Shown piece after piece: positions 268-64,000 of a stretch of DNA of 64,000 nucleotides. The DNA comes from a virus. The notes beneath the pieces are model-generated. The model did not search any database and was not told where the DNA came from. It saw only the letters and a program-made list of their open reading frames with translations. Position 1 is the stretch's first letter, and every line of letters begins with the position of its first letter. The stretch is from IMG/VR virus record IMGVR_UViG_3300033142_001194, positions 4,999-68,998 of that record. One strand, given 5' to 3'. The translations under genes were made by a program, and so were the position numbers.

Positions 268-2172
268 TTAAGATAAGAAGTATTTTGCTTCTTTAATAGA
301 CTTATCAAGATCAGGAGATAGCTTATCTAAAGTAACATCACTATTAGTTAGACTACTTAATAGTGTTGAAAGTGAATCTTCTTTAGCAAGATCCATAAGA
401 ATACTTCTATACGTTTCACGTAAAATAGGCATATTATTAGGATGACAGTGAAACGAATCATGGATAGTAAGCACATCAAAGTTACATCTACGAATAACTT
501 CTCTTGCAATATACCCATCAATACTTTGTGTAAAGTTAGCTAGTATAGGTACACTATATTTAGATGGTTTAATTTCTTCACACACATAAGTAAATGAATA
601 AGGGAATTCATCACCCTTAATACCTTTATAAGTAACAGCTTCTTTAACAGGAACATATGAGGTATGTCCATCAGGTAATACATGTACATGTTGTGTTGTA
701 TTACTATCCCAACAACTCCTTACAGCATCCATATAAGGTCTAACAGCAGGAGCTAAGTTATCCATTGCTTTATAGAATGCTTCTAACTCCTCTGTATCCT
801 CACCAAACAATCGTATAGGAGAAGCCTTTGATCCATATGAAAATGGCATTGCAGCTTTCTTAATCTGTTTCTTTGTATATACATGTGATGAACTAAGAAT
901 TCTATTAATTTCAACTGTTAAATTGTTATAGAAGTCTTGTCTTTTACCACTATCAACTAAATTACATTGAATAGCTGTTTGCTTACACCCTGTTAATACT
1001 GTAATAATTTGTAAAAATGATGCCGTACTATCCAATGCAACTAAGTGTCCTGATGGTTTACCATTCTGGTAATCCCAAAATGCTCTAACTGCTTTAAGAT
1101 ACATGTATGGATGTTCTGCTTCATAAACTAACTCCTCTAAATTATCAATATTGGTTTCTACAAATAACATTCTATCTGTAAATAATTCTTTATCTAATCC
1201 CATATGGTTTGCAATATCAATACATAACCATGTATACCCTTCTTTAGATATAACTTCTTTATCATACAAAGAGATAACAGACTTTTTATAATCTGTTGAC
1301 TGTATATTTACATGGTATCCAAGGGAATATATTCTACCTCTACTGCAATATTTCCAATTGAAATAGAAAGGTCTACCTACTAAACCATTAACAATAGTTT
1401 GTGTAATAGACTTCTGTTTTAAGAAGTTATCTTTAGCAACTGCTAAATTCTTAACAGATATACTTTTACCCTCTTCCTCAGCTTTACCTTCAAAGTCAGG
1501 CATTGGTTCATCATAAGCAATAGATTCTTCATCAATTGCTAATTTAATAGCACTTTGTTTATTAATAATATCTAAAGATATTTCCTCTTCATGATGTGCA
1601 CCATTAAGAAGTAATGATCCATTACCATTAATATAACCAGATTGGTTATTAGTCTTAACAGTCAATGGTTTAGTTATCATTGGAGGTAAATACATTGTCT
1701 CTTCTATAAACTTATACGTAGTCTTATTAAGATCAACATTAGACTCAACAATACATGTCCATATACCTTGTATATCTTGCATTGGTTTATTGATTGTATA
1801 CATCCCTGTATTAGCACATATACCTACTAATTCAGTAGCTGTATTTAAACCATCTCTGGTATTTTCATAACCTAACCAAGGCAACAATACACCTACAATT
1901 GCTTGTATAGATTGTGATGGTTTACTGCATACTGCTACAAGTACCCTTTCTACGACTTCTAAGGGGTGTACATGGGCAATCCAATCTATTCTCTTACGTT
2001 TACCCTCATAATAGTTATCGTTGCTTAGATAGGCTATTACAAGCTCTTCTAAGGGTAGTATATGTTCTTCTAATTCAAGAAGATCATGCATTACTTTATT
2101 TGATATATTCTTCTTAGAATATTTAGATTCTGATATTTCTTGTTCTAATATATTGGCTTCTTGTTCAAACAT
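268..2172 (-). CDS. T7-like single-subunit RNA polymerase, N4 RNAP II type, with both subunits in one ORF
   Basis: CSRGRIY (DxxGRxY motif), WLCIDIANHMGLDK (resembles the start of N4 gp16), motif A LDSTASFLQ, motif B KKAAMPFSYGS, motif C IHDSF. Confidence 0.9.
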   Translation of the reverse strand: MFEQEANILEQEISESKYSKKNISNKVMHDLLELEEHILPLEELVIAYLSNDNYYEGKRKRIDWIAHVHPLEVVERVLVAVCSKPSQSIQAIVGVLLPWLGYENTRDGLNTATELVGICANTGMYTINKPMQDIQGIWTCIVESNVDLNKTTYKFIEETMYLPPMITKPLTVKTNNQSGYINGNGSLLLNGAHHEEEISLDIINKQSAIKLAIDEESIAYDEPMPDFEGKAEEEGKSISVKNLAVAKDNFLKQKSITQTIVNGLVGRPFYFNWKYCSRGRIYSLGYHVNIQSTDYKKSVISLYDKEVISKEGYTWLCIDIANHMGLDKELFTDRMLFVETNIDNLEELVYEAEHPYMYLKAVRAFWDYQNGKPSGHLVALDSTASFLQIITVLTGCKQTAIQCNLVDSGKRQDFYNNLTVEINRILSSSHVYTKKQIKKAAMPFSYGSKASPIRLFGEDTEELEAFYKAMDNLAPAVRPYMDAVRSCWDSNTTQHVHVLPDGHTSYVPVKEAVTYKGIKGDEFPYSFTYVCEEIKPSKYSVPILANFTQSIDGYIAREVIRRCNFDVLTIHDSFHCHPNNMPILRETYRSILMDLAKEDSLSTLLSSLTNSDVTLDKLSPDLDKSIKEAKYFLS

Positions 2173-3076: not shown

Positions 3077-3099
3077 TCTGTTGTTAAAGGGTTTTGACT
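3077..3099 (-). promoter_or_regulatory. Early-gene leader motif AGTCAAAACCCTTTAACAACAGA (copy 1)
   Basis: Identical 23-mer at 3077-3099, 3406-3428 and 3776-3798; partial copies at 2674-2688 and 63506-63521. Confidence 0.75.
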
Positions 3100-3405: not shown

Positions 3406-3428
3406 TCTGTTGTTAAAGGGTTTTGACT
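3406..3428 (-). promoter_or_regulatory. Early-gene leader motif (copy 2)
   Basis: Exact 23-mer repeat about 30 nt upstream of ATG 3376. Confidence 0.75.
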
Positions 3429-3743: not shown

Positions 3744-3775
3744 GGTATTTCTCCTAGAGTTTTGAACTGAATTGT

Positions 3776-3798
3776 TCTGTTGTTAAAGGGTTTTGACT
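3776..3798 (-). promoter_or_regulatory. Early-gene leader motif (copy 3)
   Basis: Exact 23-mer repeat about 33 nt upstream of ATG 3743. Confidence 0.75.
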
Positions 3799-3841
3799 TT
3801 GATTGTTTATAGGGGGGGATAGTCCCTATTCTTTATGGTCA

Positions 3842-3975
3842 TTCAGTAAACACTGGATATGTACTATTTTTTTTTTTTTCTTATATAATTTAAAATTATT
3901 TTTTTTTTTTTTTCAGTAATCACTAGATTTGTACTAATTTTTTTTTTTTTTATAAAATAATTTTATAATTTTTTA
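3842..3975. repeat. 70-bp tandem duplication with long poly-T tracts; probable genome end/junction region
   Basis: ttcagtaaacactggatatgtacta-polyT at 3842 and ttcagtaatcactagatttgtactaa-polyT at 3912; lies between divergent early and terminase genes. Confidence 0.65.
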
Positions 3976-4196
3976 ATGGAACATAACTATCTTATATTTC
4001 ACTAATGTCTTTTATTATTCTAATAATCTTAATTACCTTTAAATAAATTACTATAAGCAGCAAAATATTTTTAGATAAAATACCTAACTACTAACTACCT
4101 TTATATAACAAAAAATTTAAAATAGTTGGTTGTTAGGTTTATGGTTTATTATAGGTGGTTATTACAAGAAATTTAGACAGGTTAAAAGGAGAGAGA

Positions 4197-6181: not shown

Positions 6182-6196
6182 CGACACGAAGTGTCG
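6182..6196. promoter_or_regulatory. C-GAA-G DNA mini-hairpin (vRNAP-promoter-like)
   Basis: cgacac-gaa-gtgtcg. Confidence 0.45.
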
Positions 6197-31200: not shown

Positions 31201-34200
31201 TGTCGGTTTAAATGTTCATGATGCTGTTGGTTTTAATCTGTTTGACGTGGATTCTGGTACTGTTAAGTTTAATGATGGTTTCTTTAATATTGTCTCTGAC
31301 TATAGTATTAGGGAAGAAGTACTTAAAACACTTACAAGGGTAAAAGGTAATCTTACCCCTAAAGAATTGGATGCTTTAGATAAGACATTACAGTTAGTTG
31401 AATACAGTACTAAGTATGACTACGGAGAAGGTATTGTTAATATCTATGAGGATGAAGAGGGTAAAACTCAGGTAGAGAAAAAGTATAATTCTTTTAACGA
31501 ATACTTTGATGACTTTAAAGTAGTAACTAAAGAAGATACAGATAAAAAGAAAGAGTGGATGGGTAAGATTAAAACAGTTATCCAATACAATATGGGAGGT
31601 ACAAATAAAGGACAATATAAGCCAAACAAGGAAACTATACCTACTTCAGTAGAAGCAGGAGAAGAGTTAGGTAAGTCTATGGTTGAAGCCAATATAAAAG
31701 GGATTAAACCAACCACACCTTTAGCACATAGAGGGTTATACATTCAAGAAGCATACAATGATATGCAAGTCTTAATGGACAAGAAACTTACTCATAAACA
31801 GTTTACTGAGTTAATGAATAAACAGTTAGGGACTGAGTTTAAACAGTCTACTGTTATGGGTATGGCTAAGAATACTAGAAAAACATATACACCTGATACA
31901 GAAGAAAATATAGATTCTGTATTGGTTTATGACAGGGATACTAATATTTTTAATGTTATAGAATCCACATTACAGAATGCACCTGAACAGGTGTTTGGTT
32001 CTTTACCTAATACCTTTAAAGAAGATACATTTAATGAATCCATTTCAGAAATTATTTCTGCAGAAGATACCTATAGAATATTTTCTGATCTTGAAACAAG
32101 TGGTGGATTAAATAGTGTACAAGATTCTAATACCCATAAGGAACAGTTAAAGAATATTATTTCAAGTATTGTGAACAAAGCCGTTAACCCATTAATACCT
32201 TTACAGTATAAATATAGGGAAGAAGGTACAGAAACAAGAGGACTATATACAGATAACACTATATTACTTAATAGAGGATCTTCTACGCTCACTGACGGTA
32301 CACAAGATTCAGCTCAATCAGTTTATGTACATGAGTTATTACACGCTGTTTTAAACGTTTCTCTTGATGATCCTGCTAATAGAAGGGAAAGAAGACAGAT
32401 ACAGAAATTATATGAAGAAGTAAGAAGTAAGATGACTCCTACTGATTTACTTACTGTTCCAGTATCTATAGCTTCTGACTCTCAAATAGCTGCTGCTGAA
32501 TTACGTTATGACCATATGTTTAATAACTTAAATGGTAATGGTTTACATGAGTTTATATCTATTGGATCTACAAATGAGGTTATGGTTAATTTCCTTAAGA
32601 ATATGGATAGAGAATCCAATAAAGAATTACCATTAACTATTTGGGGAAGGTTTTCAGAGATTGTTAGTAAATTTATAAATTCCCTATTTAAAAGAGTATC
32701 TGGTTTAAAAGACTTAACTGCTGATAAAGAGTTATTAAATTTAGCAGAACAATTAGCAGGAGCAAACAGTAGGAAAGCAGAAACATTATTCAGGGGAAAT
32801 ACTAAGTTTGAATCTACTGAAGTGGTATTAACAGAAGCTCTTAAGGATTATGTATTAAGCTCAATTATTGAGTATTCAGATAAGTTAGGTAATACAGCTT
32901 TTAACAACAGACCTATGCAAACACTTAAGAATTTAAGTGATTCAATATTAGCAATAAGTCTTGTTATGTGGCAAGACGAAGTTGTTCCTTGGTTAGAAGC
33001 ATTTGAACAGGCAGCATATAAAGCAGGTATTACAGAGAAAGCAATGGTATCAAGATTGATCCATGAATTAGTAGGTGAAACTGTTGATACAGCTAAGTGG
33101 AATGATCTATTGGCTCAATCCAATAAAGACATTGACCAATTAAGAGCTAAAATTAGTACCGCAACAGGAGCAGTGTTATTAAGTAAATTTAAAACAGATT
33201 TAGATCATACTCAGAAAGTAGCCATAAGTAAGTCTTTAGTTAAGACAGATTTACATTCAATAATGGATAAGTATTCTGTTTCAGAACTACAGGAATTATA
33301 TTCTACTGATAGTGGTTTATTGGCTTCTGAAATTAAAACTAAAACCAAGGAAATATCTGATAAATATAACAGTAAAGTTTCTAACTACTTTAATCTTCAT
33401 TCTGAAGGTTTAGGACGCTTAATGGCTACAGGTGAACCAGGTGTATATAACGCTATGGAGAATGCTTACCGTATTGCTAATATGCACTCACTTAAGGATA
33501 TATATGATTCTAAGCTATCAGAAGAAGAAGTACTTGAAGCAGAAGGGTTAATTGATACGCTTGCTACTTTATACGCTATCAATTATACAGATCAAAAACA
33601 TAAGACTATTTTTGCTTCTCTATTGGATTCGGAAATAGATGGTACTGTATTTACAATGTACCATCATAAACATGTAGTAAGTAAAGCTCTTGAAGAAAAC
33701 TTTGATGGTCAGAAAGCTTTAATGATTAAAGGGTATTCTTCTGAATTAACAAACCCTAATATATCTTTTGTTGTGGGTACTTTAGAAATGGAATCTGAAT
33801 TAGCTAAAGATGGGTATGTTAGAAGTAGTGTACCTTTAGAAAAAGATAAGACTGATCCAAATAAACAACAATTGTTTATGTATACCTCAAGAGATTCTGG
33901 TGCAAATACTTGGATGAAGATGATTGTATCTTTTACAAATAAATCTGCTAAAGGTGCAAACTTAATTAAGGTAAGAGCACAGGGAGATTCTGTTGATTCA
34001 TATAATGAGGGGTTAAAGGATGGTCAAAGGATGTTTGAAGATAATAGGAAAGAGATGCTTAAACAGCTTACAGGAGGGGTCAAAATTGACGCTGACGCAA
34101 CGATAGCTATTCCTACCTACAACAACGAAGGAGATATTGTTAACTACCGTTACAGAGCATCTGAGAGCTTTAAAGATGGTCTATTAGAAAAGGATAACTC

Positions 34201-42360: not shown

Positions 42361-42592
42361 GTGTATACTCCTCTAATATTTCTAGTATTTCAGGTAACCT
42401 TTCTGGAAACTCTTTACTGATTTCCTCAACCATATTACATAAAGCTACACTTTCATATTTATCATAAAAGTATTTTAAAAGTATTTCCTCCTTCTCCTTT
42501 TCAGTAGCTTTATTAATTAAGTAATCTTTAGCAATATTATAATTAAAATATGCATGTTTTGGAGTATGTACTAAATCATTGTAAATCATCAC
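42353..42592 (-). CDS. Hypothetical protein
   Basis: Overlapping start/stop with neighbours. Confidence 0.5.
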   Translation of the reverse strand: MMIYNDLVHTPKHAYFNYNIAKDYLINKATEKEKEEILLKYFYDKYESVALCNMVEEISKEFPERLPEILEILEEYTLG

Positions 42593-44259
42593 ATCACCAC
42601 GTTATCTTTAATTAACTGCCTGTACTGGATATACCCTTTAAAGTTTCCAGACCATAATCTATCCCCTCTATCACAATGTGTAATTCCTAATTCCCAATTA
42701 TGAGAAGAATTATCCTGATGTACATGTTCCATAACCTTTGCACAGTGTTCAAAAGCTGATGCATGTACGGGAACACTTGTTACAAGCTTATTGTATAAAT
42801 CTAAAGCTTTCTCTAAGCTATCATTTAAGTTTCTATAACTAACTTGAGCACAGCAACTAGCAGATATTTTAAGAGCATCTTCTTCAGAAAAGAATGGTCC
42901 AGTTCCTACATGACCGTATAGTAATGCACCTACTTCATCTCTAAAGTGTTCTACATATGGTGTATGCCAATCCCCTACTTGTAATTCTTCAGGTGTTGAG
43001 TCAGACATTGCTTTCTTCATTGCTCTAGCTAATTCAGCTATTTCAGGTTGTGCATGTTCATGATCTCGTAAGTAGAAGAAGTTATTAAACTCAGTTGAAG
43101 TTACAATAACTTTTATATGTGAGAATGGTTCTACAATTCTATTAACTAATTGTTTATGTAACCCCTGCATATCTAAATCAGAAGCAGAATGCAGTGCTCT
43201 TAATCCTGCATAGTTCCAAATGTATTTAACATTATCTAATGCTTCACCTGTTAATTCTTCACCAGCTTGCATACCAGGTTTGTTACTACCCCATTCTGAG
43301 GGTGTTACAGGGTTGTCACTGACCAATTGAAGCATCTTCTTAATAGGTATGGCTCTACTGCTTGCAGCATTGCGTGAGAAGCAATTATGCACAACAATAT
43401 CGTTAGCTACAAAATTATGAAAGTCAGAAGAAACAGAAAGGTCATAAACCATTTGGGTACTGTGGAATTCTTTAGCTGTAACACGTACAGGTTTTCCTAA
43501 AAGAGTTTGACTTACCTGCCATCCCTGTTTTTTATGATAATGATTTTTATGGCACGAAGAGCAAGCAGCTACTACATTTTTAATATTGAATGCCTCTTCT
43601 GGGTGGGTGTGTACAGGTAGTATATGGTGCAATTCTAATGGCAAATCTGTTAAGCCGCATACCTTACAATAGTTATCCTGTGCTGCTACTACCTCACCTA
43701 TATGCTGCCTATTCCATGTGGAAGTCCATTTACCATTTATTATTTTATGAGCTAAAGGGTCAGATAATGTTTGTACTCCAAACCCCGCTGTAATTATAAA
43801 ATCCGAAGTTGTGATATCTTTTAACTCTTTCCAACCCATACTCGTAAGTATCAAGTGGTCATCTGTAGCTGTAATAGAGTAATCACCTGCTCTTAAGGTG
43901 AATGTTTTCTTTTCCCCTACTTCCCAAATATCTGTTACCGTTGTATGGGTTACCTCGTTGGAGTCTTCATTAAGCATACGTAATCGCATCTTGTTTAACC
44001 TATGCTGCATCGTCCTACCTAAAGAATCCCCATGTTTCCATTTAGTATAGAACTCTTTAATACTCATAGAGTACTTTCTAAAGTTTCCCCTACCTACCTG
44101 TACACTAGGTAAATCAAAGCAAAGCATAGAATTTCCTGCTAAGCAGCGATGTGTCATAAACTCAGAATGTATCATCCGAGGATACTCAAGTTCTAAAGTT
44201 GTTATCCGATCTCCTTGAATGCTAATACTGTCAGCTATAATCTTTGCTGTTATTGTCAT
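42589..44259 (-). CDS. thyX: Flavin-dependent thymidylate synthase ThyX interrupted by an intein
   Basis: Spliced product restores HSEFMTHR-CFSRNAASSRAIP; also HKQLVNRIVEPF, AQPEI, SASCCAQVSY, HASAFEH. Confidence 0.88.
   Translation of the reverse strand: MTITAKIIADSISIQGDRITTLELEYPRMIHSEFMTHRCLAGNSMLCFDLPSVQVGRGNFRKYSMSIKEFYTKWKHGDSLGRTMQHRLNKMRLRMLNEDSNEVTHTTVTDIWEVGEKKTFTLRAGDYSITATDDHLILTSMGWKELKDITTSDFIITAGFGVQTLSDPLAHKIINGKWTSTWNRQHIGEVVAAQDNYCKVCGLTDLPLELHHILPVHTHPEEAFNIKNVVAACSSCHKNHYHKKQGWQVSQTLLGKPVRVTAKEFHSTQMVYDLSVSSDFHNFVANDIVVHNCFSRNAASSRAIPIKKMLQLVSDNPVTPSEWGSNKPGMQAGEELTGEALDNVKYIWNYAGLRALHSASDLDMQGLHKQLVNRIVEPFSHIKVIVTSTEFNNFFYLRDHEHAQPEIAELARAMKKAMSDSTPEELQVGDWHTPYVEHFRDEVGALLYGHVGTGPFFSEEDALKISASCCAQVSYRNLNDSLEKALDLYNKLVTSVPVHASAFEHCAKVMEHVHQDNSSHNWELGITHCDRGDRLWSGNFKGYIQYRQLIKDNVVM
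43384..44145 (-). mobile_element. Intein (254 aa) carrying an HNH endonuclease domain
   Basis: Starts CLAGNS, block B TATDDHLILT, block F VYDLSV, ends NFVANDIVVHN/C; internal CKVC..ELHHILP..NVVAACSSCH. Confidence 0.9.
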
Positions 44260-50203: not shown

Positions 50204-51369
50204 CTCATATGTTACGGTATAACCGTTTCCGCTATACCTCTGCATGTTTCCACACAGGACAGACTATATCATTACCCTTAAAGATTCTAAGGGTACTCCC
50301 CACTTCGGACATACTATGTCCTACTTCCTCTCGGAATAGTCGTTGAACGTTCTCCATATATGCAATCATAGTTAGGAGCTTCGCTGCTGATTATCTGTTA
50401 GTCCAAGTTGTTTTTCTACTTCTATGTATATTTCCATCATAGAGTCTGAAACTTGGCTCTTGAGACTTTCCAGCAATTCAAGGAGTACATTACATCTCAT
50501 TACTGAGAGTAAGGGCGAAATGTTTATATTATTTTGATGAACGTTACCATGACAAGAGTCACATAAACTTATTAAGTTCTCATTAGAATGTACTCTTACA
50601 TCATTATCGGAAAATAACCAATAACTTATAATATGGTGCACGTTTACAGAAAGTTCTGAGAGGTTATTACAGTATTCACATGTAGGATTAGTTAAGCGTT
50701 TACCCTTACTTATTCTGTTCCATCCCCGTGTATAATTAATATACCTTTGTGTCCCTGTATAGAAGAAGTTTCGTTCTCCTGTTGCATATAGTGACTTTCT
50801 TTCTGTAGATGTTCTAACTTGGAAGTTACTTAGTACAAGGTTTAGGAAGTCTCCATCTAAGGGGAATACTTCATAACCTGCTGGAAGATAACATTCATTA
50901 CCCATTTCCCATAATACTTCATGGGCAGATACTTGATGTGAGTTTGAATTTGCTCTAGGGTGTCCCCACATAGAAATTCTTCCTCTTTTAAGTCCTGCAG
51001 ATGTCTTATTAATTATAGGATTAGTAAGTTTAGATAATAGTGTAGATGTTAGGTAGTTATTAAACCAGTAGGCATTACCATCCCTTTCCCAATGTAGCAT
51101 CCATTTCCTAGAAGCTGCTTTAGAATGGGGGAATTTAAGCTCACGGTTACAGTAGGTAAATAACTTCTTACCTGTTACCTTACTGGTTGTAACTATCCCA
51201 ATGTATGCTAAAGCTTCTTTGTATCCATAACCCTCGTTATCAATAAACATCTGTAAAGCAGTAACACCACCTCTATTTTCTAATAATTCATCAAAATTGT
51301 ACATAATGTCTAGTTACCCTTTATAAGATTAATAGTGGACACATTACATACTATAAACATTTATATTTC
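50204..51369 (-). mobile_element. Group I intron in nrdJ
   Basis: Exon ends in U (AGT GGT), intron ends in G; P AATTGCTGGAAA, Q AATCAGCAG, R GTTCAACGACTA, S ATGATATAGTCT; P3 tactcc/ggagta; splicing restores VKPSG-TLSK. Confidence 0.9.
50372..51304 (-). CDS. Intron-encoded HNH homing endonuclease
   Basis: CEYC..VHHI..NLISLCDSCH and an upstream degenerate HNH-like AHEVLWE..LDGDFLN..SNFQ. Confidence 0.85.
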   Translation of the reverse strand: MYNFDELLENRGGVTALQMFIDNEGYGYKEALAYIGIVTTSKVTGKKLFTYCNRELKFPHSKAASRKWMLHWERDGNAYWFNNYLTSTLLSKLTNPIINKTSAGLKRGRISMWGHPRANSNSHQVSAHEVLWEMGNECYLPAGYEVFPLDGDFLNLVLSNFQVRTSTERKSLYATGERNFFYTGTQRYINYTRGWNRISKGKRLTNPTCEYCNNLSELSVNVHHIISYWLFSDNDVRVHSNENLISLCDSCHGNVHQNNINISPLLSVMRCNVLLELLESLKSQVSDSMMEIYIEVEKQLGLTDNQQRSS

Positions 51370-56617: not shown

Positions 56618-56851
56618 TAGTATTCCTTTAATTTAGATAAGCATAGAATGCATTGAAGTACCTAGCATTATGCTTATTATGTGTTTCCGTATTTAATACG
56701 GTGTTAAGTATCTAAGTATCATTTCTTTTAAATAGCACCAAAATAACACTATCTTCGGTATTAAAACGTACCTAAGCCATAATCACTTATGTCTTGATAC
56801 TATCGTTGCGTGTATACCCCTTAAAGGCTCTTTAAAAGGTATATAAAGGTA

Positions 56852-59006: not shown

Positions 59007-59834
59007 TTAAATTGTACCTTCAAGATTGTCATCTAAAAGATTCACATCTTTAAGATTCACATCTGAAAGGTTAGTACCTTCAAGGTTAGTACCTTCAAGG
59101 TTAGTACCTTCAAGGTTGGCACCTGAAAGGTTGGCACCTATAAGATTAGCATATGACAGATCAGCATTTTCAAGATTAGCATCTATAAAATTAGCAAATA
59201 AAAGGTTAGCACCTAAAAGATTAGCATCTAAAAGATTAGCATCTAAAAGGTTAGCACTTCTAAGATAAGTGCCTTCAAGATTAGCACTTGAAAGGTTAGC
59301 ACTTGAAAAGTTAGCACCTTTAAGATTAGCACTTGAAAGATCAGTACCTTTAAGATCAGTATTTGAAAGATCAGCACCTTCAAGATTAGCACTTCTAAGA
59401 TATGTGCCTTTAAGATTAGCTTTTATAAGGTTAGTATCTAAAAGATTAGCATCTAAAAGGTTAGCACCTATAAGATTAGCACCTATAAGATTAGCACCTT
59501 CAAGATTAGCACTTCTAAAATAAGTACCTTTAAGGTTAGCAGCTAAAAGGTTAGCACCTGAGAGGTTAGCAACTGAAAGATTAGCACCTTCAAGATTAGC
59601 ATATGACAGGTTAGCATCTCTAAGATCAGCACCTATAAAATTAGCACCTTTAAGATCAGCATTTTCAAGATTAGCATCTCTAAGATCAGCACCTATAAAA
59701 TTAGCATTTTCAAGATTAGCATTTTCAAGATTAGTACATTTAGCTATTGCTGCTTCAACTGTTGCTTTAATTGAGTTATTCCATTGAAAATGTCTAAAAA
59801 TAATTTCACCTGTATTTTTATTTAGTATTTTCAT
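59007..59834 (-). CDS. Pentapeptide repeat protein 4
   Basis: Shared ~33-aa leader, then A(N/D)Lxx repeats. Confidence 0.9.
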   Translation of the reverse strand: MKILNKNTGEIIFRHFQWNNSIKATVEAAIAKCTNLENANLENANFIGADLRDANLENADLKGANFIGADLRDANLSYANLEGANLSVANLSGANLLAANLKGTYFRSANLEGANLIGANLIGANLLDANLLDTNLIKANLKGTYLRSANLEGADLSNTDLKGTDLSSANLKGANFSSANLSSANLEGTYLRSANLLDANLLDANLLGANLLFANFIDANLENADLSYANLIGANLSGANLEGTNLEGTNLEGTNLSDVNLKDVNLLDDNLEGTI

Positions 59835-59886
59835 TTTGTATCCTTTATATTTATAAAATACCCCAATTAAGAGGTATCTTATTTAA

Positions 59887-60594
59887 TTAAATTGTACCTA
59901 TAAGATTCACATCTTCAAGGTTAGTACCTTTAAGATTAGCATCTAAAAGATTAGCATCTAAAAGATTAGCACCTTCAAGGTTAGTATCTTCAAGGTTAGC
60001 ACCTTCAAGGTTAGCACTTGAAAGATTAGCACCTTCAAGGTTAACATCTTCAAGATTGGCATATGAAAGGTTAGCACTTCTAAGATAAGTACCTTCAAGA
60101 TTAGCATATGTCAGTTTAGCATCTCTAAGATAAGCACCTTTAAGGTTAGCATATGAAAGGTTAGCACCTATAAGATTAGCACTTCTAAGGTTAGCACTTC
60201 TAAGGTTAGCATTTATAAGATTAGCAAATAAAAGGTTAGCATCTTTAAGATTGGCATCTTTAAGATAAGTACCTTCAAGATTAGTACTTCTAAGATAAGT
60301 ACCTTCAAGATTAGCACCTTCAAGATTAGCACTTTCAAGGTTAGCATCTATAAGATTAGCACCTGAAAGATCAGCATTTTCAAGATTAGCATCTCTAAGA
60401 TCAGCACCTATAAAATTAGCATCTCTAAGGTTAGCATCTCTAAGATCAGCACCTATAAGATTAGCATTTTCAAGATCAGCATATTCAAGATTAGTACATT
60501 TAATTATTGCTGCTTCAACTGTTATTTTAATTGAGTTATTCCATTGAAAATGTTTAAAAATAACTTCACTTGTATTTTTATTTAGTATTTTCAT
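59887..60594 (-). CDS. Pentapeptide repeat protein 3
   Basis: Shared leader, A(N/D)Lxx repeats. Confidence 0.9.
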   Translation of the reverse strand: MKILNKNTSEVIFKHFQWNNSIKITVEAAIIKCTNLEYADLENANLIGADLRDANLRDANFIGADLRDANLENADLSGANLIDANLESANLEGANLEGTYLRSTNLEGTYLKDANLKDANLLFANLINANLRSANLRSANLIGANLSYANLKGAYLRDAKLTYANLEGTYLRSANLSYANLEDVNLEGANLSSANLEGANLEDTNLEGANLLDANLLDANLKGTNLEDVNLIGTI

Positions 60595-60698
60595 TTTATG
60601 TTCCCTTATTTTAGATAAAAAAATACCCCAATTAAGAGGTATGTATTACTTATACATATATTGATAGAGAATTATTATTATGTCTAACTGTATAAGCA

Positions 60699-61667
60699 TT
60701 ATGGAAGATCAGCATCTAAAAGATTACCACCTAAAAGATTAGCATCTTTAAGGTTAGCACCTATAAGATTGGCACCTATAAGATTGGCACCTTTAAGGTT
60801 AGCATCTAAAAGATTAGCACCTTCAAGGTTAGTAACTGAAAGGTTAGCACCTTCAAAGTTAACACTTCTAAGATAAGCACTTGAAAGGTTAGCACTTCTA
60901 AGGTTAGCACTTCTAAGGTTAGCATCTAAAAGGTTAGCACCTTCAAGGTTAGCACCTATAAGATTGGCACCTTCAAGATTAGCTTTTATAAGATTGGCAT
61001 CTTCAAGATTAGCTTTTTTAAGGTTAGCATCTAAAAGATTAACACCTTTAAGGTTAGCACTTAAAAGATTAGCATCTAAAAGGTTAGCACTTCTAAGATA
61101 AGCACCTTCAAGGTTAGCATATGAAAGATCAACATATGAAAGGTTAGCACCTATAAGATTAGCACCTTTAAGGTTAGCACCTTTAAGGTTAGCACCTTTA
61201 AGGTTAACACTTCTAAGATAAGCACCTGAAAGGTTAGCATCTAAAAGATTGGTACCTTCAAGGTTAGTAACTGAAAGGTTAGCACCTATAAGATTAGCAT
61301 ATGACAGATTAGCATCTATAAGATCAGTACCTATAAAATTAGTACCTTCAAGATTAGCACCTTCAAGATTAACACTTGAAAGATCAGCATTTTCAAGATT
61401 AGTAACTGAAAGGTTAGCATATGACAGGTTAGCACCTAAAAGGTTAGCATCTATAAGATCAGCACCTTTTAGATTAGCACCTTCAAGGTTAGCACTTGAA
61501 AGGTTAGCACTTGAAAGGTTAGCACTTGAAAGATCAGCACCTTTTAGATTAGCATTTTCAAGATTAACACATTTAGTTATTGCTGCTTCAACTGTTATTT
61601 TAATTGAGTTATCCCACTGAAAATGTTTAAAAATAACTTCACCTGTATTTTCATTTTGTATTTTCAT
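60699..61667 (-). CDS. Pentapeptide repeat protein 2
   Basis: Shared leader, A(N/D)Lxx repeats. Confidence 0.9.
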
Positions 61668-61727
61668 TCTGTATCCTTGCCTTATTTTAGATAAAAAAAT
61701 ACCCCAATTAAGAGGTATCTTATTTAA

Positions 61728-62465
61728 TTAAATTGTACCTTTAAGGTTAGCACCTTTAAGATTAGCACTTGAAAGATCAGTACCTTTAAGATTAGCACCT
61801 TTAAGATTAGCACCTTCAAGGTTAGCACCTGAAAGATCAGTATCTATAAGATAAGCATCTTTAAGGTTAGTACTTGAAAGGTTAGCTTTTATAAGGTTAG
61901 CACCTTCAAGGTTAGCATCTGAAAGATTAGCACCTTTAAGGTTAGCATCTCTAAGATAAGCACTTGAAAGATTAGCACCGTCAAGATTAGCAAAAAAAAG
62001 GTTAGCACCTATAAGGTTAGCATCTATAAGATTAGCATCTATAAGATTAGCATCTTTAAGATTAGCATCTTTAAGATTAGCACCGTCAAGATTGGCATCT
62101 TCAAGATTAGCACTTCTAAGATCAGTACCTTCAAGGTTAGCACTTCTAAGGTTAGCACTTCTAAGGTTAACATCTATAAGATTAGCACCTATAAGATCAG
62201 CACCTCTAAGATCAGCACCTCTAAGATCAGCACCTCTAAGCTTAGCATCTCTAAGATCAGCACCTATAAGATCAGCACCTATAAGATCAGCACCTATAAG
62301 ATTAGCATCTCTAAGATCAGCACTTATAAGATTAGCATTTTCAAGATCAGCATCTATAAGATCAGTACCTTTAGCTATTGCTGCTTCAACTGTTGCTTTA
62401 ATTGAGTTATTCCGTTGAAAATGTTTAAAAATAACTTCACCTGTATTTTTATTTAGTATTTTCAT
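61728..62465 (-). CDS. Pentapeptide repeat protein 1
   Basis: Start placed at 62465 by homology with paralogs (MKILNKNTGEVIF). Confidence 0.9.
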   Translation of the reverse strand: MKILNKNTGEVIFKHFQRNNSIKATVEAAIAKGTDLIDADLENANLISADLRDANLIGADLIGADLIGADLRDAKLRGADLRGADLRGADLIGANLIDVNLRSANLRSANLEGTDLRSANLEDANLDGANLKDANLKDANLIDANLIDANLIGANLFFANLDGANLSSAYLRDANLKGANLSDANLEGANLIKANLSSTNLKDAYLIDTDLSGANLEGANLKGANLKGTDLSSANLKGANLKGTI

Positions 62466-62560
62466 TTTATGTTTCCTTATTTTAGGCAAAAAAATACCTC
62501 CATTAAGAGGTATGTATCACTTATATAGGTATTGATAGAAATGGATAATTAATGACTATC

Positions 62561-62752
62561 TTATTTACCTGTTCTTACTTTTACTCTTTTCAATCTAGTT
62601 TCATTTTCTGCTGATAGAAAACCAAATTCAAATTCATTTCTATAATTACCTGAATACGTAGTGATAGGTAAACCACTATAAAAGACATTCTCACCTTGTG
62701 TGTAAGCAGTCTCTTGATTAATTACATCTTGTGTTTCTACATTTTCTTCCAT
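62561..62752 (-). CDS. Hypothetical protein
   Basis: MEENVETQ... immediately after the ATPase stop. Confidence 0.45.
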   Translation of the reverse strand: MEENVETQDVINQETAYTQGENVFYSGLPITTYSGNYRNEFEFGFLSAENETRLKRVKVRTGK

Positions 62753-62754
62753 TA

Positions 62755-63405
62755 TTAATCCCGCATCCAATTTGTTATTACCCTTTCACCACCGGATCCT
62801 CTTCCCTTTTTGACTATGGTTTTATGTGTAATATCTTTAGTTTCCCCAGATTTTCCTCTGGGAATAATAGAATCCATATAAATATACTCTGCACAATTTC
62901 TTGCAAGATATTTATTGTCTTTAAATACTCCATCTTTACCTACATAATCTTCAGGATGGCAAATAATAATTACAGTACACTGATGGGAATGTGCTAAATC
63001 TTCTAACGCTTTAGCTAAGGTTTCTTTACTTTTTCTAGTTTCATCAATTTCCAATATTTCTGATAATCTCTGGTAGGTATCAAAAATTACCACTTTATCT
63101 TTTAAGCCTGAAATATTATTTTCTTTTAATGCAGCAATTACCAATTCTTCACCATACTGGTTTGCAAGTAAACCATCAATAGGTGAGTAATCTAAGTTAG
63201 CTACTATAGGAATAATGTCTTCTGAATTTAAGAATTTAATAGTTGTATACGTTTTACCTGTTCCCGGTAAACCTACAATTAAAGTTACTTCGTTTTTAGG
63301 AATAATCCCACCTATAAAGGTGTAATTAGGAATTATTAATTTAGTCATTTTTGATATATCCACGTTAGTCTCACTAAGTGTTAAAAGCAGAGGATCTCTT
63401 CTCAA
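62755..63405 (-). CDS. RecA-like/AAA P-loop ATPase (RepA/DnaB-like C-domain)
   Basis: Walker A GLPGTGKT, Walker B VVIFDT, LAHSHQCTVIIICH, KKGR; start codon uncertain. Confidence 0.7.
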   Translation of the reverse strand: MRRDPLLLTLSETNVDISKMTKLIIPNYTFIGGIIPKNEVTLIVGLPGTGKTYTTIKFLNSEDIIPIVANLDYSPIDGLLANQYGEELVIAALKENNISGLKDKVVIFDTYQRLSEILEIDETRKSKETLAKALEDLAHSHQCTVIIICHPEDYVGKDGVFKDNKYLARNCAEYIYMDSIIPRGKSGETKDITHKTIVKKGRGSGGERVITNWMRD

Positions 63406-63497
63406 GAGGGTTCCTATATATTGAATAAGCTACTGTACCGCGTTGCACGCTAAGCATTAGCTTAACTTATTTTATCTCTAAAGTCAAGTAAAAGTAA

Positions 63498-63998
63498 AAA
63501 TAAATATTAAAGGGTTTTGACCTTCGTGCTTTAACAGATATCTAGCAAAAATTTAAGGTTCTCGCGTCTTTTTGCGAGGTTCTTAAATCTTTTGTGACGA
63601 TATCTGGTATGCACATATACATATTGATAGAGAAATATTATTATCGTGCAGTGAGAAGCCTTATAGGGCTATAGGATTGAAAGCTACAGGAGTACACGAA
63701 GTGTACAAACAAAGGTATAACAGTATAAGGTAATAGGATACCAATACAACCATATAGTAAATACCTTTTATATACCGATTGTTAAGCCTTTAAGGGGTCT
63801 ACAAGCAACGATAAAGGTATTTGGTCATGATTATGTATTATTACTATTATCGTGTAGTGAGAAGCCTTATATAGTTATATATATATGTGCATATCAGATA
63901 GGGATAAAAGGTTAAGGCACTGCCACAAAAAGACGTGGCATCGCCTTAACTTTCACCCTATCTGCTAAAGCACGAAAAGAAGAAAACCCTATTTATTT
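63498..63998. other. Large inverted-repeat element: two long hairpins with complementary loops flanking 27-bp direct repeats
   Basis: 63523-63540 pairs with 63959-63976 (17/18); 63601-63619 with 63882-63900 (18/19); loops GTCTTTTT 63566-63573 and AAAAAGAC 63927-63934; direct repeats 63639-63665 and 63845-63871. Confidence 0.8.
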
Positions 63999-64000
63999 GA

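What the first reader, a model, noticed from the sequence alone, without database searches (positions are those of the whole stretch)
63498..63998. Symmetric twin-hairpin element with exactly complementary loops: candidate novel origin or kissing-loop RNA
Seen: two ~90-nt hairpins in inverted orientation (A ~63526-63614, B ~63887-63973). Each is closed by GTGC-N4/5-CAGATA...TATCTG-N4/5-GCAC, so the flanks can pair within each arm or across arms (63523-63540 with 63959-63976; 63601-63619 with 63882-63900), which makes a branch-migratable four-way junction. The upper stems differ in sequence but both pair (ctcgc/gcgag versus tgccac/gtggca), while the loops are exact complements (GTCTTTTT and AAAAAGAC). 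That pattern suggests selection on structure plus loop sequence. Between the arms are a 27-bp direct repeat (TATTATCGTGYAGTGAGAAGCCTTATA x2) and a C-GAA-G hairpin; a RecA-like ATPase gene is adjacent. Inference: either a bidirectional origin with one T-loop priming hairpin per strand (analogies: RSF1010 ssiA/ssiB, mitochondrial OriL primed by a T7-like RNAP) with iteron-like repeats, or a ~500-nt RNA with a loop-loop pseudoknot. Wobble pairs favour neither strand consistently.
Basis: partly seen in the sequence, partly recalled or inferred. Interest (0 to 1): 0.8.

Follow-up and report, generated by a model that had tools for sequence, protein, structure and literature searches.

The report
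Twin hairpins at phage genome end
A marine N4-like phage carries two inverted copies of a long, precisely shaped DNA hairpin around an early promoter, and one copy is exactly the repeat at both ends of the assembled genome, so it probably marks the chromosome ends rather than an RNA gene.

Summary
Hairpins A (63526-63614) and B (63887-63973) are the two most stable 100-nt folds in the 69-kb genome. They are inverted copies of one module, so the "exactly complementary loops" follow from the inversion. Both keep the same architecture (helices of 7, 8, 6, 8-9 and 4 bp, a 1x1 mismatch, a bulged C and an 8-nt T-rich loop) through 8 two-sided pair changes.

The host is an N4-like schitovirus. The centre of the cassette holds an N4-type C-GAA-G hairpin promoter aimed at the ATPase operon.

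New here: the record's 114-bp direct terminal repeat is arm B. It starts at the first paired base of hairpin B and ends 2 nt past the inverted repeat. Three other terminal-repeat contigs had overlaps of 55, 127 and 127 bp.

Best reading (0.4): this is the physical chromosome end, with hairpins acting as single-stranded DNA.

Rivals: an internal origin, a regulatory boundary, a duplicating module, an RNA.

The two nearest relatives lack the cassette, and pattern scans of three collections found no copy. No reads could be laid across the junction.

The parts
63498..63522 (+). Outer tail of arm A. It includes a partial copy (63507-63521) of the 15-nt core of the early-leader motif found three times at the head of the early block.
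   Evidence: pairs with 63977-63998 in the single-strand folds
63523..63624 (+). Hairpin A (core 63526-63614). Five helices, loop GTCTTTTT on the + strand, which is the better-folding strand.
   Evidence: covered by an independent 151-nt contig with 1 difference
63636..63673 (+). Direct repeat, copy 1 (38 nt).
63692..63706 (-). N4-type hairpin promoter candidate. The template (+) strand reads GTACAC-GAA-GTGTAC; the coding (-) strand has loop TTC followed by a box shared with the other copies. The predicted start is about 63684-63687, heading toward the ATPase gene.
   Evidence: the same architecture lies upstream of N4 gp1, gp2 and gp15; rules taken from the review and the LUZ7 paper
63842..63879 (+). 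Direct repeat, copy 2. It interrupts the inner part of the right arm.
63877..63976 (-). Hairpin B (core 63887-63973). Same five-helix architecture as A, loop GTCTTTTT on the - strand, which is the better-folding strand.
63887..64000 (.). 114-bp direct terminal repeat of the record (identical to bases 1-114 of the record). It is hairpin B plus a 27-nt tail.
   Evidence: its boundaries coincide with structure
63977..63998 (+). Outer tail of arm B, a degenerate inverted copy of the arm A tail. The inverted repeat ends at 63998.
63459..63487 (-). Sigma-70-like promoter (TTGACT, 17 nt, TAAGCT). It is conserved upstream of the ATPase gene in this phage and in the relatives L007, L008 and L128. It lies outside the cassette.
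   Evidence: read from the sequences
63396..63464 (-). Conserved leader. It holds the TAAGCTA...TAGCTTA hairpin (63426-63464) and a stem-GAG-stem hairpin (63396-63408) whose stem differs in all three phages but keeps pairing.
62755..63348 (-). RecA-superfamily ATPase, 197 aa as in its relatives. The longest ORF would start at 63405.

Best explanation
The cassette is a DNA-level structure at the physical end of the phage chromosome. It is not an RNA gene.

The 114-bp direct terminal repeat is arm B, that is hairpin B plus a 27-nt tail. Arm A is its diverged inverted partner, 262 bp further in. Between them lies an N4-type hairpin promoter, about 300 bp from that end, which fires inward into the ATPase / pentapeptide / methylase operon.

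Shown:
- The exact repeat and where its boundaries fall.
- The shared architecture of the two arms.
- That the central hairpin belongs to the promoter family.

Inferred:
- The record's ends are the virion DNA ends.
- When a 3' strand is exposed, at one end hairpin B forms with its last base paired. At the other end arm B folds back onto arm A, leaving a 2-nt flap.
- These structures could serve the processing or duplication of the terminal repeat at the concatemer junction, terminase recognition, or self-primed end replication.

Which of these three uses applies is not decided here.
For: 1. Bases 1-114 of the record equal window 63887-64000 exactly.
2. 114 is not a usual assembler overlap. All 3 other terminal-repeat contigs I measured had 55, 127 and 127 bp, and one of these lies inside the terminase gene. 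That these are standard k values is recalled, not shown by a call.
3. The repeat starts at the first paired base of the strongest hairpin in the genome and ends 2 nt after the outer end of the inverted repeat.
4. Folded as single-stranded DNA, the 3'-ending strand at the left end finishes on a paired base (-29.4 kcal/mol, z -7.4). At the right end, the last bases but two pair with 63498-63505.
5. Control: of 3000 random 140-nt 3' ends of this genome, 296 end on a paired base, and only 1 does so with a fold of -20 kcal/mol or better.
6. A C-GAA-G hairpin promoter sits about 300 bp from that end and points inward. In N4, hairpins of the same kind sit at 96 and 565 bp from the left end.
7. The two arms keep identical helix lengths, the mismatch, the bulged C and the loop through 8 two-sided pair changes, and the better-folding strand is the opposite strand in the two arms. 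This is as expected for single-stranded DNA signals.
8. A passage in PMC4281155 says a hairpin structure in DNA containing the terminal repeat is found during T7 infection.
Against: 1. Gene order is collinear with N4. There the end lies about 1.1 kb after the divergence point. Here it would lie about 9 kb after it, which puts RNAP II and the three early-leader motifs at the far end. That fits poorly with N4-style transcription-driven DNA entry (review).
2. The contigs of relatives G001 and G002 run straight through the syntenic place and lack the cassette.
3. The terminal repeats of N4-like phages that I recall are several hundred bp long.
4. The assembler and its k are unknown to me.
5. No raw reads were available. 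The two runs laid were contigs, and none covers arm B.
6. N4 itself has no comparable hairpin in bases 1-36000 or in its last 2.5 kb.
Confidence: 0.4

Rival explanations
1. Regulatory boundary cassette inside the chromosome. An extra N4-type promoter was placed in front of the ATPase operon. It is flanked by two stem-loop modules that act on transcripts or on transcribing polymerases, as insulators, RNA-processing sites or stabilisers. It was built by inverted duplication of the phage's own 'stem-loop then promoter' modules.
For: - The left arm ends in a partial copy of the early-leader motif. At two of the three full copies of that motif a stem-loop also lies just upstream.
- The interior shares a 24-nt and a 29-nt piece with other intergenic regions of this genome.
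- Relatives have other hairpin-plus-promoter modules at the same place: L007 carries two in tandem.
- The central hairpin belongs to a family of 6 C-GAA-G hairpins, all on the + strand.
Against: - Neither hairpin is followed by a T run: 0 terminator-like sites were found. The phage uses ordinary hairpin-plus-T-run terminators elsewhere.
- A purely RNA-level role does not explain why the inverted copy keeps the loop, the bulge and the helix lengths on the opposite strand.
- It gives no reason why arm B equals the terminal repeat.
Confidence: 0.2
2. Internal, transcription-activated replication origin. The central virion-polymerase-type promoter makes the primer or opens the duplex. The two T-loop hairpins, one per strand, then act as single-strand priming or loading signals that direct synthesis outward.
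For: - A passage in PMC2784036 lists the virion RNA polymerase among the genes essential for N4 DNA replication in vivo.
- A promoter of that type lies at the centre.
- The favoured strand of each hairpin is the strand that would template outward synthesis.
- A 5-T run sits in each loop.
- T7-like polymerases are encoded.
- A RecA-fold ATPase is next door.
Against: - It is absent from relatives whose ATPase is 75-82% identical.
- There are only two direct repeats.
- GC skew does not change.
- The ATPase fold is generic, with TM about 0.55-0.62 to RecA, G40P and KaiC.
- The primase and the DNA polymerase lie 17-25 kb away.
- My searches found no open paper that names an origin for an N4-like phage.
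- It does not explain the terminal repeat.
Confidence: 0.15
3. A selfish or recombination-born duplicating module, such as a foldback or MITE-like insertion. The terminal repeat of the record then reflects a further exact copy of arm B or heterogeneity in the population, not chromosome ends.
For: - The cassette behaves as an insertion relative to G001 and G002.
- The arms are discrete units with sharp outer ends.
- A 33-aa ORF that resembles the leader of the pentapeptide genes runs into arm B, as if a gene had been cut.
Against: - I saw no target-site duplication at 63498 / 63998.
- There is no other copy in this genome.
- Pattern scans found no other copy. The arm-specific patterns gave 0 hits in viral contigs, metagenome contigs and genome contigs. 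The looser loop-and-stem pattern gave 3 hits in viral contigs and 28 in genome contigs, none of them this hairpin.
- Random decay of two transposon ends would not keep five helices in register through 8 compensated changes.
Confidence: 0.12
4. A roughly 500-nt structured RNA with a loop-loop (kissing) contact, or an invertible promoter switch flanked by the inverted arms.
For: - The 10-nt loop segments are fully complementary.
- The whole stretch folds far better than shuffles on both strands.
- A promoter lies between the inverted repeats.
Against: - Complementarity is a by-product of the inversion.
- No Rfam match at E up to 1.
- The better-folding strands are opposite in the two arms, so one transcript carries one good hairpin and one poorer one.
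- No RNA run was listed, which is not evidence either way.
- No recombinase gene was seen near the element in the family searches I ran.
Confidence: 0.08

Closest known systems
Coliphage N4 early (virion RNA polymerase) hairpin promoters
   Same: The central element has a 6-bp stem and a 3-nt loop. The loop reads GAA on the template strand and TTC on the coding strand, and the hairpin lies upstream of same-sense genes. N4 has GTTGC-TTC-GCAAC at 96, and two TCC-loop hairpins at 565 and 4554, before gp1, gp2 and gp15. Template-strand G at -10 and A at -12 match the contacts described in the review.
   Different: This applies to the small central hairpin only, not to the 90-nt arms. The stem is less G+C-rich. 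Copies are spread over the whole early/middle block and one lies antisense in the lysis cassette. Which polymerase reads them is untested.
Direct terminal repeats and concatemer-junction processing of T7-type and N4-type podoviruses
   Same: There is an exact direct repeat at both ends of the record, with an inward-pointing early promoter a few hundred bp from one end. In T7, a hairpin in DNA containing the terminal repeat has been reported (passage seen in PMC4281155).
   Different: Here the repeat itself is one long hairpin with an inverted partner 262 bp inside. It is only 114 bp long. Its map position is not the N4 one.
RSF1010 oriV with ssiA/ssiB (recalled, no call)
   Same: Two related hairpin signals on opposite strands lie next to direct repeats. 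It works like a pair of strand-specific priming sites.
   Different: There are two repeats rather than an iteron array. No cognate initiator or hairpin-specific primase is next to it. There is no sequence likeness that I could test.
Terminal hairpins of parvoviruses and poxviruses (rolling-hairpin ends; poxvirus hairpin telomeres seen only as a search listing, PMC8956199)
   Same: Imperfect terminal palindromes with conserved mismatches and bulges, able to give a paired 3' end.
   Different: Those are inverted terminal repeats or covalently closed ends. Here the ends carry a direct repeat and the genome is a tailed-phage chromosome.
Mitochondrial light-strand origin (recalled, no call)
   Same: A stem-loop with a T run in the loop, in a system that has a T7-like RNA polymerase.
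   Different: The stem is 34 bp and multi-helix rather than short, and there is no evidence that priming occurs.

Membership tests
N4-type hairpin promoter (central hairpin 63692-63706) | 5-7 bp stem with a 3-nt loop, purine-rich on the template strand | tested here: met
   GTACAC-GAA-GTGTAC on the + (template) strand; compared with the N4 hairpins at 96, 565 and 4554 and with the review text
N4-type hairpin promoter (central hairpin 63692-63706) | Shared downstream initiation box, with a G about 11-14 nt after the loop centre | tested here: inconclusive
   The box after the hairpin is similar to the other copies (by my reading 10-12 of 16 positions). G lies at +12 and +15. LUZ7 gives 13-14.
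N4-type hairpin promoter (central hairpin 63692-63706) | A mapped transcription start, or recognition by the polymerase | not testable with these tools
   No RNA run was listed
Physical direct terminal repeat | Identical sequence at both ends of the record | tested here: met
   114 bp, exact
Physical direct terminal repeat | Not explained as an assembler overlap at an arbitrary place | tested here: met
   114 bp against 55, 127 and 127 bp in 3 of 3 other terminal-repeat contigs. The boundaries fall on structure, and 1 of 3000 random ends does as well. The assembler is unknown.
Physical direct terminal repeat | Read starts and ends pile up at the two boundaries, with doubled depth over the repeat | not testable with these tools
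   Only contigs of two low-share runs could be laid, and none lies on arm B
Physical direct terminal repeat | Map position as in N4 and relatives | tested here: not met
   The N4 end lies 1.1 kb after the divergence point. Here it would be about 9 kb after it. G001 and G002 run through the syntenic site.
Iteron-type origin with paired single-strand initiation signals (RSF1010-like) | An array of three or more iterons | tested here: not met
   Two 38-nt copies, 206 bp apart
Iteron-type origin with paired single-strand initiation signals (RSF1010-like) | Related hairpins on opposite strands | tested here: met
Iteron-type origin with paired single-strand initiation signals (RSF1010-like) | Conserved next to the replication gene in relatives | tested here: not met
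   Absent upstream of the ATPase gene in L007, L008 and L128, and absent from the whole of G002
Described RNA family (Rfam 15) | A match to any covariance model | tested here: not met
   0 matches at E up to 1 in 62000-64000
Intrinsic terminator | A G+C-rich stem followed by a T run | tested here: not met
   0 sites in 63250-64000
MITE / foldback transposon | Several copies, and a target-site duplication | tested here: not met
   No further copy in the genome. The arm-specific patterns gave 0 hits in viral, metagenome and genome contigs. The looser loop-and-stem pattern gave only chance hits in viral contigs and genome contigs. No duplication was seen at the borders.

The most novel reading that the evidence does not exclude
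An N4-like tailed phage whose direct terminal repeat is itself a long, shape-conserved hairpin. Each chromosome end can then present a base-paired 3' terminus: hairpin B at one end, and a fold-back of arm B on arm A at the other. The phage would copy or regenerate its ends by self-priming, in a rolling-hairpin-like way, a mechanism known from parvoviruses and poxviruses but not from phages with direct terminal repeats.
Probability: 0.15. Interest if true: 0.8.

Novelty: new variant of a known kind. Interest (0 to 1): 0.5.

Why it matters
None of my four searches of open papers found a mapped replication origin for an N4-like phage, and I read nothing on how their terminal repeats are processed. 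A terminal repeat made of a conserved hairpin with an inverted partner would offer a concrete, testable structure for end processing or end priming in this family. It would also show that the cut site can move within an otherwise collinear genome.

On the practical side, this is a warning for genome scans. A 'terminal repeat' of unusual length whose borders fall on structure carries biological information and should not be trimmed away as an assembly overlap.

If the repeat turns out not to be physical, what remains is a lineage-specific promoter cassette of modest interest.

Tried and rejected
Searches for relatives of the cassette, all empty:
- blastn of the region and tblastn of the ATPase against isolated phages: no match.
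- Pattern scans of viral contigs: 0 hits for the arm-base pattern, and 3 hits for the loop-and-stem pattern, all in coding sequence.
- The 15-nt leader core gave 101 stretches in viral contigs. Of the rows printed, all but one hold a single match, and the one with two holds them in its own 127-bp terminal overlap. About that number is expected by chance, by my own estimate.
- Metagenome contigs: 0 hits.
- Genome contigs: 0 hits, then 28 hits. I folded all 28 and read the structures of the four most stable; in none of those does the conserved loop sit at the tip of a single long hairpin.
- blastn against G001-G006: nothing below E = 0.1.
- Earlier notes of this scan, searched by sequence: none.

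Other negative or abandoned steps:
- Loci of methylase homologues L123-L127 were checked for similar hairpins: none. The cassette therefore does not travel with the methylase.
Metagenome loci gave only L128, which is like L007.
- My first ungapped hairpin scanner missed both hairpins because of their bulges. I replaced it with sliding folds.
- The 1.5-kb gene-free gap of N4 looked like a possible counterpart but is a tRNA cluster.
- The ends of G002 give no clue: there is no repeat, and the first 300 nt are G+C-rich.
- GC and AT skew show no change at the element.
- ATPase: sequence searches of PDB and NCBIfam gave only weak KaiC-type P-loop hits. The fold search gave a generic RecA core.
- PHROGs and Pfam on the early-block proteins did not find a gp2/Drc-like factor.
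- No RNA holder was listed for the stretch, and no part of arm B was covered by the laid contigs. Neither is used as evidence.
- Paper searches for an origin in N4-like phages, or for hairpin priming in N4, found nothing relevant. My memory of hairpin-primed N4 replication in vitro is therefore left out of the evidence.
- Arm A, read on the - strand, contains a 7-nt string that I recall as the T7 class II pause motif. The preprint read does not print the motif, so this stays unverified and unused.
- Supplementary files were not consulted.

Full report
**Where the window lies.** The window is bases 4999-68998 of a 68,998-bp virus record that IMG/VR classes as having direct terminal repeats. The last 114 bases of the window (63887-64000) are identical to bases 1-114 of the record. 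The sequence therefore continues past the window end into an EcoRI-type adenine methylase gene on the - strand (Pfam E = 1e-116; sequence).

**What the phage is.** It is an N4-like schitovirus.
- It has a 3421-aa ORF at the end of the + strand block, which I take to be the virion RNA polymerase from its size and position; no family search was run on it.
- Its terminase is up to about 65% identical (over 94-99% of the query) to enterobacterial N4-like phages, with 503 records matched.
- It has a single-chain T7-like RNAP II (PF00940).
- It has a family A DNA polymerase, a primase and ribonucleotide reductase pieces in N4 order.
- G+C is 32.6%.
- Fragments nearly identical to the region occur in a marine and a sediment metagenome run.

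**The observation.**
- The 501-nt stretch folds with z = -12.2 (+ strand) and -10.1 (- strand).
- In a sliding fold of the whole genome, the two hairpins are the two most stable 100-nt windows: -44.9 and -38.8 kcal/mol against a mean of -15.0, sd 4.9.
- A(+) aligns with the reverse complement of B. The arms are therefore inverted copies of one unit, and the exact complementarity of the loops follows from that.
- Helix by helix, both arms have the same build, counted from the loop outward: 7 bp, a 1x1 mismatch, 8 bp, a bulged C on the 3' side, 6 bp, a small internal loop, 8 or 9 bp, a 5x4 internal loop, 4 bp.
- Eight pairs differ on both sides while pairing is kept: 3 in the apical helix, 3 in the third helix and 2 in the fourth. 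The second helix keeps its length although its sequence is shifted by 2 bp. No helix position has lost its pair.
- The strand with the GTCTTTTT loop folds better in both arms, and that strand is + for A and - for B.
- The inverted repeat reaches from 63498 to 63647 and from 63808 to 63998. The second direct-repeat copy is inserted in the right arm.

**The centre.** The hairpin GTACAC-GAA-GTGTAC (63692-63706) is one of six perfect C-GAA-G hairpins in the genome, all with GAA on the + strand.
- Most of them are followed on the - strand by a shared box.
- A scan of N4 for hairpins with 3-nt loops found the same design upstream of gp1 (96), gp2 (565) and gp15 (4554), with loops TTC or TCC on the coding strand. 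This agrees with the review's account of the virion-polymerase promoters and with the LUZ7 data.
- The relative G002 has its own set, with the core GTCC-GAA-GGAC in four of the five hairpins. One lies just upstream of its RNAP II gene.
- The cassette therefore carries an N4-type promoter that fires toward the ATPase gene.
- The left arm's outer tail holds a partial copy of a second motif that occurs three times at the head of the early block.

**Relatives.** The ATPase has relatives at 82% identity (L007, L128) and 75% identity (L008).
- All share only the proximal 120 nt: a sigma-70-like promoter, a TAAGCTA...TAGCTTA hairpin, and a stem-GAG-stem hairpin whose stem varies with compensation.
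- None has the twin hairpins there.
- G002, which is 95% complete and collinear with this genome, has nothing like them anywhere, either by blastn or by folding.
- No copy was found in isolated phages, viral contigs, metagenome contigs or species genomes, and no Rfam family matches.
- The cassette is therefore specific to this lineage, and covariation across species cannot be tested. The only comparison possible is between the two arms.

**The terminal repeat.** The 114-bp repeat begins at the first paired base of hairpin B and ends 2 nt after the outer end of the inverted repeat.
- The three other terminal-repeat contigs I could measure have overlaps of 55, 127 and 127 bp. One of them lies inside the terminase gene, as expected for assembler overlaps of circular paths.
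- Folded as single-stranded DNA, the 3'-ending strand at the left end of the record terminates on a paired base of hairpin B, with a 53-nt 5' tail left as template. At the right end, all but the last two bases pair with the outer tail of arm A.
- Of 3000 random 3' ends from this genome, only 1 ends on a paired base within a fold of -20 kcal/mol or better.
- An arbitrary break of a circular assembly is therefore very unlikely. Either these are the ends of the sequenced molecules, or arm B is a discrete exact repeat in some other sense.

**Reading.** I favour physical chromosome ends, at 0.4.
- The repeat would be hairpin B, with an inward-pointing N4-type promoter about 300 bp from the end, as in N4. 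The arms would act as single-stranded DNA structures in the processing, recognition or priming of ends. A T7 precedent for a hairpin in repeat-containing DNA is cited in PMC4281155.
- The main objection is the map position. By collinearity with N4 and G002, the ends should lie near the divergent region (window 3744-4154). RNAP II would otherwise sit at the far end of the chromosome.
- The rivals are set out with their odds in the Rival explanations section: a regulatory boundary cassette (0.2), an internal transcription-activated origin (0.15), a duplicating module (0.12), and an RNA or an invertible switch (0.08).
- The choice between them needs reads laid across the junction, and I could not obtain those.

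**Limits.**
- Only passages of papers were read: PMC4496689 (passages and section 8), PMC9163698, PMC2784036, PMC4281155, PMC3821669 and the preprint 10.64898/2026.02.12.705533 (passages). Other papers were seen only as search listings.
- Statements about RSF1010, the mitochondrial light-strand origin, usual assembler k values and the usual lengths of N4-like terminal repeats are recalled from memory.

Noticed in passing
window 59007-62489 (- strand): Four tandem pentapeptide-repeat genes (Pfam E = 1e-81 to 1e-92). Each is preceded by the same terminator-plus-ribosome-site module, and the methylase gene beyond the window end has that module too.
   Followed up: partly
record bases 173 down to window 63958 (- strand), across the window end: A 33-aa ORF with a strong ribosome site starts at the methylase stop codon and runs into arm B, stopping at the base of the hairpin. 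Its start resembles the leader of the pentapeptide genes, as if a fifth paralogue had been cut off.
   Followed up: partly
window 3084-3098, 3413-3427, 3783-3797 (and 63507-63521): A 15-nt core, part of a 22-nt motif on the - strand, occurs three times at the head of the early block. Each copy lies 30-50 nt before a ribosome site and a start codon. It is a second promoter-like or leader family, distinct from the GAA hairpins.
   Followed up: partly
window 6182-6196: A C-GAA-G hairpin of the promoter family lies between the lysis cassette and the terminase gene, oriented antisense to these late genes.
   Followed up: no
window 63396-63487; L007 2890-2995; L008 2868-2970: A conserved sigma-70-like promoter and two leader hairpins lie upstream of the ATPase gene in three phages. 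The GAG-loop hairpin has a different but always paired stem in each.
   Followed up: partly
window 268-2172 (- strand): RNAP II is a single 634-aa chain (PF00940), not two subunits as in N4.
   Followed up: partly
window 42589-44259 and 50372-51304: The ThyX gene carries an intein with an HNH domain. A separate 310-aa HNH protein sits among the ribonucleotide reductase pieces.
   Followed up: no
L008 about 2017-2240: A gene-free, structured-looking stretch splits an AAA ATPase reading frame in the relative G002. It may be a group I intron.
   Followed up: no
window 56801-56829 and 60658-60681: Pieces of 29 nt (93%, inverted) and 24 nt (96%) are shared between other intergenic regions and the interior of the cassette.
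   Followed up: partly
L129 (N4) 32451-33127: The 1.5-kb gap without annotated genes in the N4 record holds at least four tRNA genes by Rfam.
   Followed up: yes
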